Origin: Psilocybe cubensis
Lineage: Eukaryota
NCBI GenBank assembly: GCA_017499595.2
Contig: CM039001.1
Location: 2,046,001-2,110,000, forward strand
Reading direction: 5' to 3'
DNA length: 64,000 bases
Positions 2,294 to 62,438 of this stretch are shown here, piece after piece. The position numbers and the translations under genes are program-made. The notes beneath the pieces are model-generated. The model was not told where the DNA came from, made no database searches, and worked only from the letters and a program-made list of their open reading frames with translations. The number at the start of each line of letters is the position of its first letter. Positions within the stretch are counted from its first letter, which is position 1.

Positions 2294-4071
2294 TTAGTCC
2301 TCTTTCTCGTTGTCGTTGTCGTTTCCATCGTCTTCGTCATCAGATCTACTATCGTCTACTTCTTTGGATATAAGCCCCCTAGGTTGTGATATTCAGAGGA
2401 AATGGTATAAAGAGAATTACTTTTAGACTTACCTAATGAGAATTTTAGTCATGAGATAATACCAGAACAAATTCAGAAATTGAAGGATTAACAGTGGAAG
2501 GAAGATCTGCATCTTCATCCAGCCAGGCATGTATACACCTTCCGACCAGTCCCATTTCTTTGCGAATTCACTGAGAATGGGTTATCAGGTCGATATGTAA
2601 GGAACATTGATATCACAAACGTACGGAATACCAACTGGCTGCTCGAACCATACAGACCAGAGAATCCATAGGTTCAAATAATGCCGGAAATAACTACATG
2701 TATGCTTTCAGCGTTTAAAACACAGTTATATATGGGTAAATCCCACCTCCAGATGACAAAGAAGACACCGAAGGCATAAACCTTAGCCGTGTTCCATTGA
2801 ATATAATTCAATAATTTAGAGAACTAACACCCAAATTTGCGATTAGTTGACTACCAGAAGAATTGATAGATTACGTACCGCCAGGAATGTATCCGGGATG
2901 TCCATACTCATATAAACTGCATTTCCTATGTATGTTAAATTTACGAGATAGCTCCAACTGACATATTATATCAGATGTGCTCAAGACAAATGTACTCAAC
3001 ACGTACCCAACGAGCCAGAGAGTAACAAAGTGATGGGCGACCAGTTCTCCGTAATCCTTTCGCGGCTTTTCCAGTCCCAGCACAAGAACAATTAGCTGTT
3101 GCCACCAGTATGCGAACTGCATGAGATAGTATCGTTTTAGTTCGGGCTTCATGTCCCAGTTGGGGTAAGCTAAAAAGGTGTTGTGTTGGAAACAGCAATA
3201 GTCAATATTCAGAAGAGCTTACTATTCCAAAACTCTTGAGTGTTGTACCAGTACGTCGGAAGTTGTGACATGACGCGCTGGCAAGGCTAGAATGAGAGAC
3301 AAATACAACGAAAAGGGGCCATGTACATACGTATCCCCAGGCACCGAAGAACATGAAATAAAAAAGTGCGTATGCTTGTTCACTAAATCGGTCAATCTTC
3401 GCTTCGCGCCTGAGCCCAAAGTATTTGGCGGCAGGTCGCGATATTTTCAGGGACAAAGTTTCACGAACGAAAGAGAAGAAGACGACATAGTATCCCACAA
3501 ATGCTAAATCCCACCACGTCTTTTGATAACGCGGATCCTCAGGAGTCGATGTAGGGACGTAACCGGAGAGCAGGAAGATTTTGCTGAAGGGATTTGGGTA
3601 CCCTGTTTCGACACCGAAATAGGAGAGAAGTTCCCAATTGAGATAAAGTACGACAGGGATTAGTAGAAGCTTGAAAGAAATAGCTAGAAGAATCAAATTA
3701 ACGCGGGAAATGAGACTTTGGTTAACAACGTACCTGGATCAATGGCCCAGCGCACAAAAACGGACCGTTGGTCTCGTAGGGCGTTGAAGGCAGTAGAAAC
3801 CGCTGGAGAAGCAGCTCTCTCCGGTGTTGAAGCCCCGAGTGGTCTATGGTATGAATTGTCAAGAGCTTCAACGCATGTAAATTAAAACAAGTTAAGACAG
3901 ACGTTTGGGGAAGAAAAGAGCCTGTGAGGTGATGATTAGGGTCTCCTCTGCTCGAAAGGGTGTAAACGCAGAGAAATAAGTGGTGCAAATGGAAATGACG
4001 AACTCTATTCCGGGAATTGTAGCGCGCAGATGGGCTGCTTGTTTTTGAGCCTTGGATTGGCGAACAGACAT
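2294..4071 (-). CDS. LAG1: Ceramide synthase, LAG1/LAC1 family (TLC domain), multi-exon
   Basis: Lag1 motif EKPRKDYGELVAHHFVTLWL, KIDRFSEQ, and acidic C-terminus DDSRSDDEDD; LAG1 versus LAC1 is not resolved. Confidence 0.9.
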
Positions 4072-4243
4072 GGTATGAGTTGGAAGACTATTCGCGTGAA
4101 CAAATTTGTCTATGTTCAACACTTCAAACCGTCCTAGTCCGGTTGCAATTCCCTGACGCGTGCATGTGACACGTTAATGAACGTGACCATCACGATATTG
4201 GCGCGCTTGCTACTTCAAGCTTCAAGCTTGACACCCATCACTC

Positions 4244-49977: not shown

Positions 49978-50229
49978 ATGCCTTATCTTGATCTTACTGA
50001 AATGGATCACACTACTCTACTATTAGTATTACTAATTCTAGTAGTTTTGCAAGCCATTGTACAGACAATCATCATTCGGATCACATTCGGGTCGCGCGGA
50101 CAAGAATCGGAGTACGAAATTCAAGGTCACGGAGCTCGAAATACTATCATTGACCAGACGTTCGGTTTGACCACTGATTCGGTTTACCCACCTTCCCGTG
50201 CTCCGTTTCTTTTGGAAATTGAAATCTAA
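49978..50229 (+). CDS. Possible small single-TM hypothetical protein (83 aa)
   Basis: ATG-initiated ORF with hydrophobic stretch LLLVLLILVVLQAIVQTIII; no other support. Confidence 0.25.
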   Translation: MPYLDLTEMDHTTLLLVLLILVVLQAIVQTIIIRITFGSRGQESEYEIQGHGARNTIIDQTFGLTTDSVYPPSRAPFLLEIEI

Positions 50230-50536
50230 GCTTGAGTGTATGGGCTATACATAATTCTACCTTTTTTTTGACCAGAAACGATGCAGAAATGAGAAAAACG
50301 AATGAGTGTTAAAAATTGATCGTTTTGCAACGCCGACAATGCCATCAAAACGAATTAAAGGGCGGCATGTCGGCGTATTGCGTTTCAAGTGCAATCAACA
50401 GGTCGCGTTGCGTTCGGAGTTGAAAATCTCACTGATGATCAGCCATCAAAACGAATTAGTGGTCAAACCGAACGTCTGGTCAATGATAGTAGCTGAGTCG
50501 AGCCTATCTCCAACACTGTTGATGTTTTATTCTCAC

Positions 50537-50913
50537 TGTTGAATTTCTAACCGTGCCTTCGTAATGCACGCCCTTTTCTTGAATGATTATATTTTCTTGT
50601 TGTCTTATTTCTCCGTGATGACCTCAGTTTTAGTCTAGACCGTACGTAGACGGGTGCACGCATGAACAATACGTACACCGAGTAGGTCCGCATGGCTTGG
50701 GCATTTGCCCAGCCATTTTCGTATCACATATACCAGAACAATTTCGTCTCAACTCCCCTCAGTCTATTCTACATTGACTGAGGTGAGTTGACCATCGTAT
50801 TTACTGTTTCCCTTCGTATATTGACTTTGTGTAGCCATTATATTTGTTCAATAGGTACTATACACGAATATAAGTCTATTCTACATTGACTGAGCCATTA
50901 TATTTGTTCAATA
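50537..50913 (+). repeat. 5' LTR (377 bp, TGTTGAA...TTCAATA)
   Basis: Direct repeat of 55761-56137 with one difference seen (T50828 vs C56052). Confidence 0.97.
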
Positions 50914-50925
50914 GGTTATGGGCCC
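50914..50925 (+). other. Primer-binding site GGTTATGGGCCC (internal/half initiator tRNA-Met type)
   Basis: Directly abuts the LTR end; matches the PBS type of Drosophila copia and yeast Ty5. Confidence 0.85.
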
Positions 50926-50980
50926 CGACCTCAGCCTATAATCAACGAGTAGACTCATTTCCCTTCACACCAACTTCACA

Positions 50981-53900
50981 ATGCTCTCTACAACGAAGCT
51001 AGGCGACGATTTCTTGCGCATTCCCAAGCTCGAGGCCACGGGCGCTAATTGGGTGGTCTATCGAGACCGTTTCTTGATTTCCATCGATGCACGCGGACTG
51101 GGAGATCACATCGACGGCACAGCACCTATGCCAGTCGCTCCATCGTTCTCCTCGTCCTCTGCACCGGCTCCCGCTGCCACAGGCTTGTCTACCACTCCTG
51201 CAACGACCCAGCCACCGCCGGCCCCGACAGTGGAACAAACAGCTGCGCTTGAGGAGTACTACAAGAAGTTGAAGGTGTGGAAGTAGGAGGAGGCCGTGGT
51301 GAAGCAGCAGATCGCTGGCACGATCCCGGACAGCCTCTTCTTGAAGATTCGCATGCTACCTACTGCAGAGATGATGTGGGCGGCATTGGGAGCGAATTTC
51401 CAGAACAAATCTCGCATGGTTTCGATTGACCTTCGTCGACGATTGCAAGAGGAGCGGTGTGGAGATAAGGGCGACGTGCGAGCGCATTTTGCGAAGATAC
51501 GCCTCATGCGCGAAGATCTCTCGTCCATGGGCTATCCCCTCGACGACCTCGAATTCTACACTATCCTCATGGGCTCCCTACCCGCTTCCTACGACTCTTT
51601 TGTCTCTGTCATCGATGCATCATACACAACAGTTATTGCTGCGCAGTATGCGAATACGGAAGACCCCCCACCACCGCCATCACCCGAAAACTTTATTTTA
51701 AGCGTCACCGACGAGTACGAGCGCCGGCTCCTTCGTGCGAAGGGCAGTAGCGGCAAGAAGGACAGCGAGAACGTTGCCTTTTACTCCAACGACTCAGAGA
51801 GAGGTCAAAAAGGAGGCTCGCGTCGGGACAACGTCGAATGCTTCAATTGCAAGAAGCGCGGTCACTATAAATCGGAGTGCTGGGCGAAGGGAGGCGGCAG
51901 AGAAGGTCAACGCCCTGGAAAGGGCAAGGGGAAAGGCAAGGGGAAGGGGAAAGCGAAGGAGAATGGGGAGAGCAAGGGCAAGGACAATTCATTGACGGGG
52001 GCTTCTTCGAGCGCTAAACACACGGCTGGAGCTGCCAATGCTGATTCTGACTCGGATGAGGCTTGGATGGCGAATGCTTTCGATGACGATTCGTATTCCG
52101 AGACCTCAGACACACCCTCCTCCTTCAATGACTTCGATTCCGATTTTATTCAGGAATTATTCGATGAAGCTGTTCCCGTAAGCGACACCGAAGCGTCTAC
52201 CGTATTGGACAATAGCAGCGACGAAATGCCAGGTCTCCAAAGCGTTTCTGAATCGTCTGACGACTCTGACGGTGATAGCCCCACGCTTGACTCAGTATCT
52301 GACTCCGACAACAATTTTTCGGATGATGACTTGAGCTCTGAGTCTGATGACGACGAGTTTATTATTCCCCCGCCATCGTTGAATCCTATCTTTGTCCAAG
52401 CGAACGCTCTTCAGGAAGACACAGCGTTTACGAGCAAGACACATGAGGAGCTGACCACTCCAATAGATGTGGAGCTTTATGATTCGGGAGCTACCCGACA
52501 CATGTCTGGTCTTCAACACTGTTTTATCAACTTCGTCGACACTCCAGAGAAGCCCATTTCCGCCGCTGATAACCGAACTTTCACGGCGACTGGCAAGGGA
52601 GACATTTGGATCACTATTCCCAATGGTGAGCAAGAGTCTCGGGTCCTCTTGAAGGACGTCCTCTATGCGCCGTCGATGCGCGTCACTCTCGTATCCATCA
52701 GTCGTATTGCTCTTGCCGGATCAACCTTGATTTTTCACGGTGAATTTTGCAAGATTTACGATCGCCATCGTCGACCGATTGGAAGGGTGTCTGTAAAGGG
52801 AGGACTGTATCGGGTCTTTACGCCACGCTCAGTTGAGCCAGAGGTTGAGACCGCGACCGCCGCGAAGGTGGAGGAGGTAATCTCACTTGATAAACTTCAT
52901 CGTCGACTGGGACATGTTTCGCACGAGCGAGCGAAGCGTTTGGTGGATAAGGGACTCGTCACTGGTATTCTATTAGACCCAGAAAGTGTCTCAACAATTT
53001 GCGAGTCCTGCGAGTGGGCGAAAGGCGAGCGTAGAGCTATCCGACGCGAACGCGAACGAGAACGCACCAAGGCTGTTGGCGACGAGATTTATTCGGATCT
53101 GTGGGGTCCAGCGCCAGTCGAAACGATTAATTGCAAGAAGTACTACATTAGCTTCACGGACGATTACAGCCGCTATTCTCAGCTCTATTTTTTGCGCAAA
53201 AAGAGCGAGGCGTTCGATGCGTATCGGTCATACGAGGCATGGCTAAAAACGCAAAAGGATATCCAAATCAAATCGCTTCGTACGGATCGTGGAGGCGAAT
53301 ACCTCAACGATGCGTTTACTGCCCATCTTGCACTCGCTGGAACCGAACGGCACCTCACAACCCACGATACACCCGAGTATAATGGCGTTTCGGAGCGCCT
53401 AAACCGCACCATTATTGCTAAAGTCCGTGCCATGCTTCATGAGAGCGGACTGCCCGATTTTTTGTGGGCTGAAGCAGCCCGCCACTCTGTGCATCTCAAG
53501 AACTGTTCCTGGACGCGCAGTCTTGGAAACACGACCCCCTTCGAAATATTTCATGGCAAGAAGCCAAACCTTGCGAATTTACACCCCTGGGGATGCAGAG
53601 TGCGAGTTTACGACGACAACAACAATAAACTTGCAGCGCGATCGAAAATCGGCCGCTGGGTTGGTTTTGACGATGAGAGCTTTGCCCATCGCATATATTG
53701 GACCGAGAAGCATTCAATTACTGTTGAACGAAACGTTAAGTTCAATTTTGATGAAGAAATATTCGTCGAGGCTGCACCACTCGAGGGGGAGCGTAAACCA
53801 TTTGTCGTGTAGACTCCGCCCGACGAACCACTTGCTTCCAACGATTCTCAACGCCCCAAGGTCGAGGAAGTCGACGAGGATGACGAGGACAAGCCAGAGC

Positions 53901-55753
53901 CCAGAGGTCCTTCGGATCATACTGAAAATCGATTCCAGAATGAAGAACCCGAGCCAGAAGGTCCACGACGAAGCTTACGCATTCGCAAAGCTTCCTCGTA
54001 TGTGGAACGATTGAGAAGTGGTGTGGGAGTGCTCAGCGCAAGACGCAGCGATGGTGTACTGCCTGTAGGCATACAAGAAGCGCCAGAGCCTTCGGAGACG
54101 GGTGGAGTTGCGGATGGCGAGGAGGATGCTTGGGAATTGGTCGAGGCGGCGGAGTATGCAATGGCAGCGGTTATGGAGGGAGCAGAAGGTTTAACACCTA
54201 CATTTGAGGAGGCGAGGAAGCGTGCAGACTGGCCTAAATGGGAGATCGCAATCAAGGAGGAGCTCGATTCGTTGAAGCGAAACGGCACTTACGAGCTCGT
54301 ACAGCGACCCAAGGATGCCAACGTCACCAAATGTCGATGGGTTTTGCGTATCAAGAAGAATGCAGCCGGCGAAATCGAAAAATACAAGGCACGTCTAGTC
54401 GCTAAAGGTTTCACTCAAATTCATGGCGTAGATTATTACGAGACGTATGCACCTGTTGCTCGTTTCGCATCTTTTCGACTCCTTCTTGCTCTTGCTGCGC
54501 GGAACGACTGGATTGCAGATATCATTGACTTCGATTCAGCGTACCTTAACAGCAAATTGGGTCCAAACGAGAAGGTATTTCTTGAACAACCACCCGAGTT
54601 CGCCGTCCGCAACAGTCGTGACTGGGTTTGGCGCTTAAACAAGACGTTATACGGCTTGAAACAGGGCGCTAAAAACTGGTACGACGCACTTTGTAAAGCT
54701 CTCGCTGATTTGGGGTTCGTAAGAACGGATGCAGACCATGGAGTCTTCGTAAAGAAGATTGGCTCCGATATCATTATCCTTGCAGTACACGTCGACGATT
54801 GCCTGCTTGTTGGGAGCTCTAGGAAGCAGATTAACGAATTCAAGAAGCGAATGAATCGTATCTACAAGCTCACCGACTTAGGCGCCGTGAACTGGCTCTT
54901 GGGGATCAAGATCACTCGAGATTTCGTCAACCACACCATTTCCCTATCCCAGGACGCATACATCAACTCTATCATTGCGCGATTCAATTTTAACGACTTG
55001 AAACCGTCGTCTATCCCTATGGATCACACAGTTACGCTCTCAAAATCGCAATCCCCCACGAAGATCGCAGACATCATCAAGATGCAGCAAATTCCGTACC
55101 GTGAGGCGGTCGGATCCCTGATGTATGCAGCGATGGGCACTCGCCCTGATATCGCATTTGCAGTGTCCACAGTGGCACAATTCTCCGAGAACCCAGGTTG
55201 GGCTCATTGGGAGGCCGTGAAGCGAATCTTTCGCTATTTATTGGGCACTCGCTCATTGCAGTTGACGTACGGCGGCGAGAAGCGAGGAGTGGAAGGGTTC
55301 GTTGATGCTGACGGAGCATCCCAGGAGCACAGGCGTGCAATTTCCGGGTATGTTTTCATGGTTGACGGGGGAGCCGTTAGCTGGTCATCGAAGAAACAAG
55401 AGCTCGTTACACTGTCAACCACCGAGGCGGAATATGTCGCACAAACTCACGCTGCGAAGGAAGCCATTTGGCTTCGTGAACTCATCACTCAACTTTTCGG
55501 ACCTCTCGACGGTCCAACCATTTTATTTTCTGACAGCAAATCGGCCATTGCACTCGCACAAGACGGACACTATCATGCACGCACAAAACATATCGATATT
55601 CGCTACCATTTTATCCGCTACGTCATAGAGAAGGGCACGATCAAGTTGATCTACTGCCCCACAAATGACATGACGGCCGACATTCTCACCAAGGCGCTTC
55701 CTAGCGTGAAGGCCAAACATTTCGCTACCGCCCTCGGACTCAGCACGGTTTGA
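50981..55753 (+). pseudogene. Copia gag-pol polyprotein, a single frame interrupted by two in-frame TAG stops
   Basis: ORFs 50981, 51296 and 54002 share one frame; Zn knuckle CFNCKKRGHYKSEC, protease YDSGATRHM, HRRLGH..CESC, integrase SDLWGP/TDRGGEY/SERLNRT, RT KARLVAKG..HVDD, RNase H ADILTKAL; stops at 51284-51286 and 53810-53812. Confidence 0.92.
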
Positions 55754-55760
55754 GGGGGAG
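55752..55760 (+). other. Polypurine tract GAGGGGGAG
   Basis: Immediately precedes the 3' LTR and overlaps the pol stop codon. Confidence 0.9.
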
Positions 55761-56137
55761 TGTTGAATTTCTAACCGTGCCTTCGTAATGCACGCCCTTT
55801 TCTTGAATGATTATATTTTCTTGTTGTCTTATTTCTCCGTGATGACCTCAGTTTTAGTCTAGACCGTACGTAGACGGGTGCACGCATGAACAATACGTAC
55901 ACCGAGTAGGTCCGCATGGCTTGGGCATTTGCCCAGCCATTTTCGTATCACATATACCAGAACAATTTCGTCTCAACTCCCCTCAGTCTATTCTACATTG
56001 ACTGAGGTGAGTTGACCATCGTATTTACTGTTTCCCTTCGTATATTGACTTCGTGTAGCCATTATATTTGTTCAATAGGTACTATACACGAATATAAGTC
56101 TATTCTACATTGACTGAGCCATTATATTTGTTCAATA
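55761..56137 (+). repeat. 3' LTR (377 bp)
   Basis: Direct repeat of 50537-50913, followed by TSD CTCAC. Confidence 0.97.
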
Positions 56138-56344
56138 CTCACATCTATCAAACTCTTTCATCTTTTATCTGTGGTTCTGAAGAGCTTTTTAATTCGTCTC
56201 ATCCACCGCAAGATATCAAAAATTAAGTCATCAATGCGCAATGGATATACAATAAAATTGGAAGCATCAGGATGTTCAGAGAAAAAAGACCTGATAGTTG
56301 AATAGAAAAAATAGAAATTCCTTGATTATATAGTGGTAGATGTT

Positions 56345-57374
56345 TTATATCGGTGTGGCCTGACTTGTCGATGCTTGAGTTTCCAATGCGTCCACTGTCG
56401 GATGATTTTTATTCTTCTTTCGTCTTTTGCGTTTCTTCTTGGTAGGTGTCGATGGTGTCACAGGTTCATGGTCATTTTCGGGGTCACTAGGTGGTCCGTC
56501 TAAGTTAAGCAAAGGGATCTTCAACAAATCGAGAGGGAGGGTCTTTCGTGAACTCTTCGAAGGTGATTGTGCTGCGAGGGCTTCATGGGCCAAGTTTTTG
56601 GCATCTTCTATTCGTAACCATGCGGTAAGTAATTGTGAAGGCCAGGTATTAGTGTGCACACTTACCGTGAAGCGAGGGCGGCAACGTTTCTGAATTTGCA
56701 GGAGGTGTAGTCTGTTTTGTATCATCCACAATGTCCATAGGATTCAAAGATTTCGATCGCTTCTTTTTGGACTTGGGAGAAGTAACAACTTTGTCCGAAT
56801 CGCCAGGTCTATGGTCATCTCCAGTGTTTTCTGAGGTGTAAGCCTTCGTGGGTGACGCCGGGGGTGAAACTGGAGCCTCTAATTTCACACTGGCGGTGTC
56901 AGAGATCTTCTTTTTCTTCTTTTTTCCGTGGACCACATCAAACGGATCGAATCGGGCCTTTTTCTTGACGGCTATGACCTTGCTTTCATCTTCGTCGTCT
57001 GAAGCCACACTAGAGGGGACAGCATCGACCTCTTCCCTTGGGCGCTTGGAAGTCAGTTTACCTTTGAGACGTGCAACCTCTCGGGTCTGACTTTGCATGC
57101 CTTCCGGTATGGCAGCTCCCACACCTAGCCTTGACGATATCCAATCAATACTGTCATCCCGGCCTTGGTTAGGACACCACGCACCCTACCTAGGAGGTCT
57201 TTTCATATACTCGGTGATTTCTTGCTCGAGATGCTGTCTTCTCGAACTTTTCGGAAATTTATGAGGATCCATCCACGAGGTAACGAGGCTTTGTGCAAAC
57301 GACATGGACATGTCGATTTGGGCTTGAAGAGCCGCCGTATCCACGGAGTCATCGTCTAGTAGCTCTCCGTTCAT
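56345..57374 (-). CDS. Hypothetical Lys-rich, probably nuclear protein (DUF3245-like), about 3 exons
   Basis: Spliced LQAQIDMSMSFAQSLVTSWM...RPPRLGVGAAIP; NLS-like KKKKKK and KKKRKRRKK tracts; family call is tentative. Confidence 0.65.
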
Positions 57375-57528
57375 CGTATATATGTGTCCAGGACTGATGC
57401 AATTAAGATCTGTTCGATGCTGAAAGAAGTGTGTGATGGTTGTTGACTGTCAAGGTGTTTTTGTGAAGTTTTGGTGCCATGTTGTGAGATCAGGACAAAC
57501 TTTCGGCACGCGATCACTTATACCTTAT

Positions 57529-57874
57529 CACGCCGGACAAAAATGCTGACCAGTTAGCCTGGGTGTTGTCCTGACCAGTGACGTGACTAGTACGGTGACC
57601 GATTACATAGTGTCACAAATATGTTGTCACGCTAGTTCATTATTAGTAGGCTCGACAGTAAATGGCAAATTACTTGATTGTCTTGCGTTGGAACTCAGTG
57701 CGTAGTAAGAAGAAATACTAAACAATCAAGTAATATGTTATTTACTGTTGAGCCTACTAATAATGAATTAGCGTGACAATGTATGTGTGACACTATGTAG
57801 TTGGTCACGGTACTAGTCACGTCACTGGTCAGGACAACACCCAGGCTAACTGGTCAGCATTTTTGTCCGGCGTG
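57529..57874. mobile_element. 346-bp foldback / MITE-like element with ~153-bp inverted arms, possibly CMC-EnSpm-like
   Basis: Arms 57529-57681 and 57722-57874; outer 65 bp perfectly complementary; termini CACG...CGTG; flanked by TAT on both sides. Confidence 0.85.
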
Positions 57875-57920
57875 TATATGTAAGCGGTTTGACTCCTCTG
57901 ATTTATCCCATCACCCACTC

Positions 57921-59229
57921 ATGTCATCGTTCAAACGCAAGAGAGTGCAACTCGATGAATCTGATGAAGACGAGCCTGCATATGGAAAACAAATTCTTCC
58001 TGTTGCAAATCTACCAGCCGATTTCAACGATGAACCCATGGATGGGATGCAGTATCTCTTCATGGTGAGGTTAGTCATCTTAACTCTACCTCAAGGCCTT
58101 ACTTTTGACCTTTTATGTAGACGCGATGCTCGACTACTACCTGGAACTGTACGTGTAGAAAATCCTTATGAGAAACCATCACCTCCTGTGACCGAAGAGA
58201 GGTTCCTTGAATCGTTTGCTGGTCCTTCTCAGTTACCTCTTGAGAGTTGGCGGGAAACATTTGAATATCGCTTTCAAAACTTCCGCAGAGTGTGTTATAT
58301 TTTTCTCTGGAAATCTGCTTGTTGATACCACATCTAACATATACGTTTTACTTGAAGAATTTCAACCAGCCAACAATTCATGTGGGTGCCGCAACTCCTG
58401 GGCCTCGCGGACTGATGCCCGACAAAAAAGATAGGGACATGTGGTGGGCATTCTTGTCTGGACAACCTGAATCAGAGTGGAACCCAACAAAGAAAGCTAA
58501 GAATAAATCTAAACGCAATCCATCTGCTCTTGGAAGTATGTGTGCATGGACAGAAGGAAACCCGCAACAAGATTCTTCACCATCATCCCCATACAACACT
58601 TCGCAGCAGCTCGACGATGAAGGCGAGGTAGAGCAAGTGCTCAAAGTCAGTGCTGCTGAATCTTTACCCAGCCCTGCTGGCACGCCTGTCCCTCTCGAAT
58701 ACTTCGAGGGTCTCAGTCAACCTAGTTCAACGGTCAGCCCTCCTACTTCTCTACTTCCCGAAGACAAGTTGACTCCACGGGAACCCACATCTATCCTTCT
58801 AAAAATGATAGACGAGGTCTGTTTAAAAAACTTCCTCTCGCTGTAATTTGGGCTGACATAAGGTTATTGTTTCAGCGTGTAGCTTTGCATCTTCTGATGT
58901 ATTTTACTCATTGGATCAATCTCTATCTTAAAGAACCGGAACCACAACAACATCTGCCCACGGAATGCCATGCTAGATGGATATTTGTGCTATTATCAAG
59001 GATTGATGATTTTATATCATCCGATGATCTCCACCTTTTGCGCAATCTTGCTCGAGCGTGCCTGGCTTTGCTTGGGCATATCAAGAAGCAGCAACAAACT
59101 TCATCTTGCAAACCTCCATCAAAACGAATGGGTGAAAACGCCTGCTGGATTATCATTACGACAATTGCTGGAGTTTGGAAGCAAAGAGACCTCTGGATGG
59201 ATGCTGAGAGCATCTTAAAAAAACTGTGA
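57921..59229 (+). CDS. Gemin2/SIP1/Brr1-like snRNP assembly factor, multi-exon
   Basis: QILPVA..EPMDGMQYLFMVRRDA; ARWIFVLLSRID..LLRNLARAC; C-terminal IAGVWKQRDL. Confidence 0.75.
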
Positions 59230-61840: not shown

Positions 61841-62438
61841 GTAAGATTGGGCTCATCAGAAACCAGCACCCTTACGTAATCAATGGGCTTGGCGCCAAGA
61901 GCGGCCAAAATCCAGCTCGAAAAAAAAATCAAAAGTTATGTTGACGGAAAATGGTTTCAGACAAAAAGTTTAAAAAAAAAAAATTCATAAATGTGCATAT
62001 ACAATCCTTACTACTAGCCTTTATGCCCACAATAATAGAATTACACCTCAGAGGTCAAATTGTAGTCTCTGGAAGTCCATAATGAGTCTGAGAGGTATTA
62101 CTTAGGCGTGACTTATTGTCACGTGTGGTCACGTGTACCATTATATAAGCGGCCAAAAGAACATTGTCAAATTTTCGAAAATCTCCCAAACTCGAGAAAA
62201 CACCATTTCTGACGTGTTAGACTAAAAAAAAAGGAAAAAAATTAAAATCTTTATAACTTCTTGAGATCAAAATTTTTTTGAAAAAAAAAACCACAGATGT
62301 GTTCAAAGAAGCATAACCTACATATCTGTGGTTCAAAAATGTAGAATAGTGTGAGTGCAGAAGGGTTGAAAAGGTTCGGAGGTAAGCCAACTTTTGCTTA
62401 CCTAAGGGGGTGCTGGTTCCTGATGAGCCCAATCTTAC
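61841..62438. mobile_element. ~600-bp non-autonomous DNA transposon (MITE-like) with 31-bp terminal inverted repeats
   Basis: GTAAGATTGGGCTCATCAGAAACCAGCACCC (61841-61871) matches the reverse complement of 62408-62438 with 1 mismatch; A-tract-rich non-coding interior. Confidence 0.75.

What the first reader, a model, noticed from the sequence alone, without database searches (positions are those of the whole stretch)
50911..50915. Non-canonical TG...TA LTR end whose junction with the PBS creates a splice acceptor only at the 5' LTR
Seen: the TSD fixes both LTR ends as ...TTCAATA instead of the usual ...CA. At the 5' LTR the next base is the first G of the PBS, giving CAATAG|GTTATG, a YAG acceptor. 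At the 3' LTR the next base is host C (56138), so no acceptor exists. Inference: intron 2 can be spliced only at the 5' end of the RNA, a built-in asymmetry that would protect the 3' LTR copy.
Basis: partly seen in the sequence, partly recalled or inferred. Interest (0 to 1): 0.7.

Follow-up and report, generated by a model that had tools for sequence, protein, structure and literature searches.

The report
Copia LTR that rebuilds its introns
A fungal jumping gene ends its terminal repeat in TA instead of the usual CA, but the TA is only a side feature of a larger, widely shared design in which the repeat carries two small introns plus an already-spliced copy of the same stretch, which would let the element be spliced and still hand its introns on.

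Summary
Observation confirmed. This Ty1/copia element has TG...TA LTRs (50537-50913, 55761-56137), fixed by the TSD CTCAC and by an empty site in another strain's DNA. TA plus the first G of the PBS gives TAG only at the 5' LTR. TA is fixed in one clade (9 of 9 complete insertions have perfect 5-bp TSDs). CA+G is an acceptor too (99 CAG versus 13 TAG PBS junctions in the genome). 3 of 10 TA-clade 3' LTRs are followed by G. Most CA families hold this acceptor inside both LTRs. The real feature is the LTR layout U3-A-intron1-B-spacer-A'B', where A'B' is the exact spliced copy of A+B. It occurs in 19 of 39 own and 13 of 105 metagenome PBS regions, and the copies evolve together (13 differences in 1143 bases). 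A U3-dependent hairpin covers donor 1 only in the 3' RNA copy. Best reading: spliced RNA is the reverse-transcription template and the introns return through the 3' LTR. No RNA covered the element, so splicing is inferred. This scan noted the module before on other DNA; I found no paper on it.

The parts
50532..50536 (+). left target-site duplication CTCAC
   Evidence: empty site in X1, X2
50537..50913 (+). 5' LTR, 377 nt, TG...TA
50749..50791 (+). predicted RNA hairpin, 15 bp with one mismatch: 50749-50764 pairs with 50776-50791 and covers donor 1; most of the 5' arm lies upstream of the inferred RNA start
   Evidence: (z -5.8; 0 of 200 shuffles as stable)
50761..50782 (+). exon A (22 nt); its first base is the inferred transcription start
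   Evidence: exact repeat with 50873-50894; start site inferred
50783..50834 (+). intron 1, 52 nt, GTGAGT...TTGAC (14 nt before the end)...TAG
   Evidence: precisely absent from the downstream copy
50835..50854 (+). exon B (20 nt), ends in TAG; template of the LTR's TA end and of the first PBS base under the model
50855..50914 (+). intron 2, 60 nt: GT spacer 50855-50872, spliced copy A' 50873-50894, B' 50895-50914; the acceptor G is the first PBS base
   Evidence: splicing inferred
50872..50872 (+). hypervariable base just before A' (A here, C in two other copies, T in X1/X2); candidate strong-stop junction
50914..50927 (+). primer-binding site, 14 nt complementary to the anticodon arm of the host tRNA-Met(CAT), no spacer after the LTR
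50981..55753 (+). gag-pol in copia order (gag, protease-like, integrase, RT); this copy has in-frame stops at 51284-51286 and 53810-53812
55752..55760 (+). polypurine tract
55761..56137 (+). 3' LTR with the same module (hairpin 55973-56015, intron 1 copy 56007-56058, A'B' 56097-56137)
56138..56142 (+). right target-site duplication CTCAC

Best explanation
The LTR is built so that a spliced RNA can be the replication template without loss of the introns. Shown from sequence: the layout, the exact spliced copy, joint evolution of the two copies, a conserved hairpin, a clade-fixed TA end and clean TSDs. Inferred steps: (1) Transcription starts at the A of exon A (50761), inside the hairpin's 5' arm, so at the 5' end donor 1 is free and both short introns are removed. 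This would supply the 5' intron that many mushroom-forming fungi need for expression. (2) The spliced 5' end reads A+B+PBS, the same as A'B'+PBS; exon B gives back the first PBS base. (3) At the 3' end the whole U3 arm is present, the hairpin locks donor 1, and the RNA probably ends inside A'/B', before intron 2 has an acceptor. (4) Strong-stop cDNA copied from spliced A+B jumps to A' at the 3' end and goes on through spacer, B, intron 1, A and U3, rebuilding the full LTR. The terminal TA is then simply the end of exon B (TA-G|GT), re-copied to the LTR end each cycle and tolerated by the integrase. The PBS-completed acceptor is a by-product of this clade having no extra terminal piece after B'; it is at most a back-up safeguard.
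For: Two-intron layout in 19 of 39 distinct own-genome PBS regions and 13 of 105 metagenome regions, against 0 of 144 reverse-complement controls; one-intron calls in 7 and 8 (control 2 of 144). It spans RT identities of 35-68% to this element. In 31 parsed two-intron elements, A+B versus A'B' differ at 13 of 1143 bases, while TA-clade elements differ from each other by 2-16 bases in A+B and by nearly the same number in A'B'. Intron lengths of 48-64 and 51-66 nt match the 51-68 nt host introns spliced in X3/X4 next to the element. The cost of opening donor 1 is a median 13.3 kcal/mol with U3 and 4.8 when the RNA starts at the A' boundary; it is more than 2 kcal higher in 36 of 40 elements and above all 10 shuffled-U3 controls in 36 of 40. 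Donor 2 shows no such effect (6.1 versus 5.5; 3 of 31). For this element the values are 21.0 and 5.1. The arm follows the donor sequence across 22 families: 22 of 44 Watson-Crick pairs at +3/+4, against 12.8 +/- 2.7 with arms permuted. The base before A' differs within each of 5 groups of close relatives and takes three states in this family. TA with no terminal piece is one clade (100/100), sister to a CA family that has the piece; 9 of 9 complete TA-clade insertions have perfect 5-bp TSDs.
Against: No RNA evidence: splicing, start site and poly(A) site are all inferred. The parser demanded GT/AG at the borders, so canonical borders are partly by construction (the strand control limits this). 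The elements are related, so counts and the permutation value are not independent tests. Intron 2's donor is weak (GTACTA) and its branch site unsure; a YTRAY within 30 nt of the intron 1 acceptor is missing in 14 of 31 elements. 13 of 39 own PBS regions have no parsed module, among them the family with 12 identical-scoring RT hits (L020), so the module is not needed for activity. In the one-intron L019 family the base near the junction is polymorphic only by C/T, like many other sites, which does not support a junction hot spot there. The hairpin effect is weak or absent in 4 of 40 elements.
Confidence: 0.72

Rival explanations
1. One reading: the PBS-completed acceptor is itself the selected safeguard of the 3' LTR copy of intron 2 in this clade, because the RNA reads through the whole 3' LTR.
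For: In this copy the acceptor exists only at the 5' LTR. The layout is fixed in the TA clade and recurs in other elements (L069, L161, L178, L082, L116). Donor 2 has no hairpin protection, so it needs some other safeguard.
Against: Related families with the acceptor inside both LTRs keep intron 2 just as well. 3 of 10 TA-clade 3' LTRs are followed by G, although whether such copies leave offspring cannot be seen. It does not explain intron 1 or need TA. An RNA ending in R would not contain this end at all (general LTR biology, recalled).
Confidence: 0.15
2. The module is a tandem duplication made once from a spliced RNA (or by slippage) and since kept alike by recombination or RT template switching; ongoing splicing is not needed, and the hairpin serves poly(A) control, strand transfer or protein binding.
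For: No transcript shows the splices. Tandem repeats in LTRs can change in copy number (a 61-nt tandem at the LTR end in L041-L051). A perfect inverted repeat could act in DNA.
Against: Slippage between A and A' would add or delete the whole interval; it would not keep both A'=A and B'=B across an intron whose sequence drifts (21-26 of 52-56 bases between TA subfamilies). All 7 LTRs of this family and 10 of 10 of the L011 group are matched over nearly their full length, with both introns. The hairpin arm tracks intron bases +3/+4.
Confidence: 0.13
3. Origin of the TA, route 1: a C-to-T change in a CAG exon-B end of an element that already lacked the terminal piece, spread to the LTR end by the B-to-B' copying.
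For: TTCAATA is one transition from a perfect inverted repeat of the LTR start TGTTGAA. Same-layout elements with CA ends exist (L161, L178). CpA-to-TpA changes are common in decayed copies here (72 of 286 CpA sites in the C13 copy).
Against: The sister family has a terminal piece and an exon B ending in TAG, so the piece had to be lost in any case.
Confidence: 0.45
4. Origin of the TA, route 2: a splice from donor 2 to the CA|G acceptor at the PBS removed the old CA-ending terminal piece, leaving exon B's TA as the new LTR end. Splicing would have created the non-canonical end, the reverse of the first reader's causality.
For: Families with a terminal piece form the outgroups, including the sister L013/L014. 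Intron 2 ends in TAG in 25 of 31 parsed elements, so such a splice would usually leave TA.
Against: The end matches the LTR start at 6 of 7 bases, more than a fresh exon end should, unless it adapted later. TA also occurs at the end of a retained terminal piece (L137, L179). The tree has only 21 rows from one genome and a midpoint root.
Confidence: 0.4

Closest known systems
Foamy virus LTR: major splice donor masked at the 3' LTR by a U3-dependent fold (Schrom et al. 2013, PMC3694450; abstract and section 11 read)
   Same: A donor near the RNA 5' end is open when the RNA starts at +1 and masked when upstream U3 bases are present.
   Different: There the fold controls poly(A) choice through U1 binding and the LTR holds no spliced copy of the leader. 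Here a whole intron pair lies inside the LTR with a spliced duplicate, and the fold is computed, not probed.
Penelope-like elements with a retained 5' UTR intron (PMC8557442; passages read)
   Same: A retroelement keeps an intron near its promoter through retrotransposition.
   Different: PLEs have pseudo-LTRs and a GIY-YIG nuclease, and that paper calls the significance of their intron retention unknown. This is an integrase-bearing copia element with a sequence-encoded route to rebuild the intron.
Non-TGCA copia elements of plants such as Tos17 (TG..GA), AtRE1 (TA..TA), TARE1 (TA..CA) (LTR_retriever preprint 10.1101/137141; passages read)
   Same: Short-LTR copia elements with a non-canonical terminal dinucleotide and normal 5-bp TSDs.
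   Different: Plant survey, no link to splicing in the passages seen. The table of the seven motifs is in a supplement I could not open, so I cannot say from a call whether TG..TA is listed.
Half-tRNA-primed Ty1/copia elements, Drosophila copia and yeast Ty5 (recalled; one search gave a listing only)
   Same: PBS abuts the LTR and pairs with the anticodon arm of tRNA-Met.
   Different: No LTR intron module in those elements as I recall them; kinship not tested here.

Membership tests
Ty1/copia LTR retrotransposon | gag, protease, integrase, RT order (integrase before RT) | tested here: met
   Pfam Retrotran_gag_2, Pol_BBD, gag_pre-integrs, rve (below its curated cut-off), RVT_2 in that order
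Ty1/copia LTR retrotransposon | two direct LTRs, 5-bp TSD, PBS and PPT | tested here: met
Ty1/copia LTR retrotransposon | TG...CA termini (usual, with known exceptions) | tested here: not met
   TG...TA in all 6 LTRs of the three complete copies; exceptions known
Half-tRNA-primed copia elements (copia, Ty5) | PBS complementary to the anticodon arm of tRNA-Met, no spacer | tested here: met
   14-nt match to two host tRNA-Met(CAT) genes found by ARAGORN, one read in full
Half-tRNA-primed copia elements (copia, Ty5) | RT groups with copia or Ty5 | not tested
   the tree held only own-genome elements
Spliceosomal intron | GT...YAG borders and host-like length | tested here: met
   52 and 60 nt; neighbouring host introns 51-68 nt
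Spliceosomal intron | branch site near the acceptor | tested here: inconclusive
   intron 1 TTGAC at -14; intron 2 TTGAC at -29 or CTGAG at -25; no YTRAY within 30 nt of the intron 1 acceptor in 14 of 31 elements
Spliceosomal intron | removed from RNA | tested here: inconclusive
   the two RNA-like runs did not cover the LTR; indirect record is the spliced copy in DNA
Foamy-virus-type LTR switch | donor masked by a U3-dependent fold at the 3' LTR only | tested here: met
   by computation only
Foamy-virus-type LTR switch | U1 binding suppresses polyadenylation in the 5' LTR | not testable with these tools
   needs 3' end mapping and donor mutants
Penelope-like elements | GIY-YIG nuclease and pseudo-LTRs, no integrase | tested here: not met
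   integrase and copia RT found, no GIY-YIG hit

The most novel reading that the evidence does not exclude
A widespread lineage of fungal copia elements replicates from a spliced RNA and regenerates its LTR introns every cycle, using a stored spliced copy as the strand-transfer target and a U3-gated hairpin to spare the 3' copy. As a result the integrase attachment end is templated by an exon, and in this clade a splice into the LTR/PBS junction created the non-canonical TA end.
Probability: 0.35. Interest if true: 0.88.

Novelty: new variant of a known kind. Interest (0 to 1): 0.68.

Why it matters
Retroelements normally lose any intron that is spliced from the RNA they copy, yet many mushroom-forming fungi need a 5' intron for expression (PMC4935854, passages). 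This LTR would solve both at once, with parts that can be pointed to and tested base by base. It would also explain how a non-canonical LTR end can become fixed (it is re-copied from an exon), give a natural marker of the strong-stop junction, and warn that TG..CA filters miss a whole clade of recent insertions in such genomes.

Tried and rejected
RNA test: no RNA holder listed. X3 and X4 show spliced host genes but cover the element only at a 37-42 nt low-complexity patch; this blank is not counted for or against. The alignment mixed orientations and was discarded; comparisons were redone in scripts. Integrase residues fixed in the TA clade and different in CA elements: none found in 300 positions over 6 TA and 11 CA rows plus this element; the EY before the conserved NG is clade-wide but the CA rows vary there, so no claim. 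Junction hot spot in the L019 family: inconclusive. The 73% match at 62338-62377 shows no LTR structure on reading and is taken as chance. Rows dropped: loci with under 200 nt upstream of the PBS were left out; six parsed rows (L032, L051, L066, L122, L156, L162: mis-parsed or duplicate) and L041 (too little upstream sequence) are not; four more (L052, L080, L151, L165) were left out; L179 and L182 were mis-anchored and L092 unanchored in its junction table and are not counted. Four of the 15 one-intron calls (L066, L122, L156, L162) are partial parses. Only part of the 125 own PBS matches was fetched (64 hits, 39 distinct). Literature searches for the module and for TG..TA ends (0 papers) listed nothing that describes it, judged from titles and abstract starts; the library lacks most subscription papers. 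Non-templated bases at strong-stop ends are recalled for Ty1; one search listed 2 papers that I did not read.

Full report
Observation. The element at 50537-56137 is a Ty1/copia retrotransposon: Pfam finds gag, a protease-like barrel, integrase and copia RT in that order. Its LTRs are 377 nt, differ at one base, begin TGTTGAA, end TTCAATA and are flanked by CTCAC. Two DNA runs of another strain hold the empty site, skipping 5606 bases with a 5-base overlap, so the ends are exact. The PBS starts at 50914 with no spacer and matches 14 bases of the anticodon arm of a host tRNA-Met. The host is taken to be a mushroom-forming fungus from the short introns and from earlier notes; I did not test this.

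Is TA fixed? Yes. The genome has two more complete copies and one decayed LTR, all TA, and the LTR contig of X2 keeps it. Six further elements at 65-68% RT identity also end in TA. With this family they form one clade (100/100), sister to a CA-ending family. All 9 complete insertions have perfect 5-bp TSDs, so integration handles TA cleanly. Non-TGCA copia ends are known in plants (10.1101/137141, passages; its motif table is in a supplement I could not see).

Does TA make the acceptor, and is the asymmetry built in? No to the first, only weakly to the second. Of 125 PBS matches in the genome, 99 follow CA and 13 follow TA; both give YAG. The base after the 3' LTR is the first base of the target site, and it is G in 3 of 10 TA-clade cases. 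In the CA-ending two-intron families of this genome the acceptor of the second intron lies inside the LTR, followed by a short terminal piece, so both LTRs have it. The piece-less layout also occurs with CA ends in metagenome contigs.

What is really there. The last 153 bases of the LTR read A (50761-50782), a 52-nt GT-AG intron, B (50835-50854), an 18-nt GT spacer, then A' and B' joined without the intron. Removing both introns from an RNA that starts at A gives the same sequence as A'B' plus the PBS. A parser found this two-intron layout in 19 of 39 distinct own PBS regions and 13 of 105 metagenome regions, and a one-intron form in 7 and 8 (four of these 15 are partial parses). On the opposite strand it found 0 and 2 of 144. 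The copies evolve together: 13 differences in 1143 bases within 31 elements, while A+B differs by 2-16 bases between TA-clade elements and A'B' differs by nearly the same amount. A stored duplicate would drift; a copy re-made from spliced RNA would not. Intron lengths match the host introns spliced in X3 and X4 beside the element.

A hairpin pairs 50749-50764 with 50776-50791 and buries donor 1 (z -5.8, 0 of 200 shuffles). A' begins at the equivalent of 50761, so an RNA starting there lacks most of the 5' arm, while the 3' LTR copy has it. Across 40 elements the cost of opening donor 1 is a median 13.3 kcal/mol with U3 and 4.8 without; donor 2 shows no change. Elements with quite different sequence (L019, L025, L071, L083) keep the fold. 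The arm follows donor positions +3/+4 across 22 families (22 of 44 pairs against 12.8 +/- 2.7 permuted); relatedness inflates this. Foamy viruses use a U3-dependent fold over their donor in a like way (PMC3694450, abstract and section 11); I searched for that paper from recall before earlier notes named it. The base just before A' is A here, C in the two other copies and T in X1/X2, the only three-state site among these LTRs. It differs within 5 of 5 groups of close relatives. That fits the end of strong-stop cDNA, where RT is known to add stray bases (recalled). The L019 family gave no clear support for this.

Mechanism. Inferred cycle: start at A; splice both introns; prime at the restored PBS; copy spliced A+B; jump to A' at the RNA 3' end, which kept intron 1 behind the hairpin and probably ends before intron 2's acceptor; copy on through B, intron 1, A and U3. 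The LTR end is thus templated by exon B, and TA is that exon's end. Whether TA arose by a C-to-T change in a piece-less CA ancestor or by a splice that removed the old CA piece is open (about even). The motive would be intron-dependent expression, reported for several Agaricomycetes though not all (PMC4935854, passages). I put the cycle at about 0.72.

Against. No transcript covers the LTR, so splicing, start and end are unshown. Branch sites are often non-consensus and donor 2 is weak. One very recently spread family (L020) lacks the duplicate. Another note reports a sister copy lacking the stretch (e1-7588093); I saw no such loss in 7 LTRs of this family or 10 of the L011 group.

Known and new. 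It is a copia element by every feature tested except the CA end. It works like a foamy-virus LTR in the donor switch and like Penelope elements in keeping an intron (PMC8557442, passages), but belongs to neither. A survey of fungal copia elements does not use the word intron in its main text (PMC5445492, passages). Searches listed no description of the module. This scan has noted it many times, in this genome and others; those are AI notes, not support, and my reading was written down before the first look-up. Verdict: observation confirmed, interpretation partly supported, new variant of a known kind, interest 0.68, nearly all of it owed to the module rather than to the TA.

Noticed in passing
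window 50140-50491: Small multi-copy element with 44-nt terminal inverted repeats, high contig depth and loose ends at both borders: MITE-like, 45 bases upstream of the 5' LTR.
   Followed up: partly
window 57526-57874: 349-base insertion with 153-nt inverted arms, absent from X1 and X2: a polymorphic MITE-like element.
   Followed up: partly
L020 (G000:C1:2745600-2755500), LTR at 4038-4218: Family with 12 identical-scoring RT hits whose short LTR has no spliced duplicate, yet has a hairpin over an AG|GT and a GT...CAG stretch of about 67 nt (counted by eye) ending at the PBS junction.
   Followed up: partly
G000:C2:2202931-2250082; C10:2234842-2249604; C4:2869774-2883236: Head-to-tail arrays of one copia family with periods of about 4.7, 2.95 and 4.5 kb; the C2 units carry a 61-nt tandem repeat of the LTR end.
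   Followed up: no
G000:C5:3192620-3204579: The C5 copy of this family has LTRs 11.6 kb apart instead of 5.2 kb, so about 6.4 kb of extra DNA, probably a nested insertion.
   Followed up: no
L016 / G000:C13:1827477-1829285: Decayed relative: 297 of 393 substitutions are C>T or G>A; 52% of CpG but also 18-25% of other C contexts are changed.
   Followed up: partly
L069 (G000:C11:2778430): A further TA-ending, piece-less two-intron LTR with different sequence; not placed on the tree, so it may be an independent TA origin.
   Followed up: no
metagenome loci L071-L193: Among 105 distinct regions before this PBS motif, 65 end CA, 25 TA, 10 GA, 5 AA; TA ends may be common in this lineage, though many loci without the module were not shown to be LTRs.
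   Followed up: partly
window 50918-50941: The ATG inside the PBS opens a 7-codon upstream ORF in the gag frame.
   Followed up: no
window 56339-57447 (-) and 57914-58400 (+): Flanking host genes are covered by spliced contigs in X3 and X4, with introns of 58, 60, 51 and 68 nt.
   Followed up: partly
window 62338-62377: 73% inverted match to the U3/hairpin region; no LTR structure seen around it, probably chance.
   Followed up: partly
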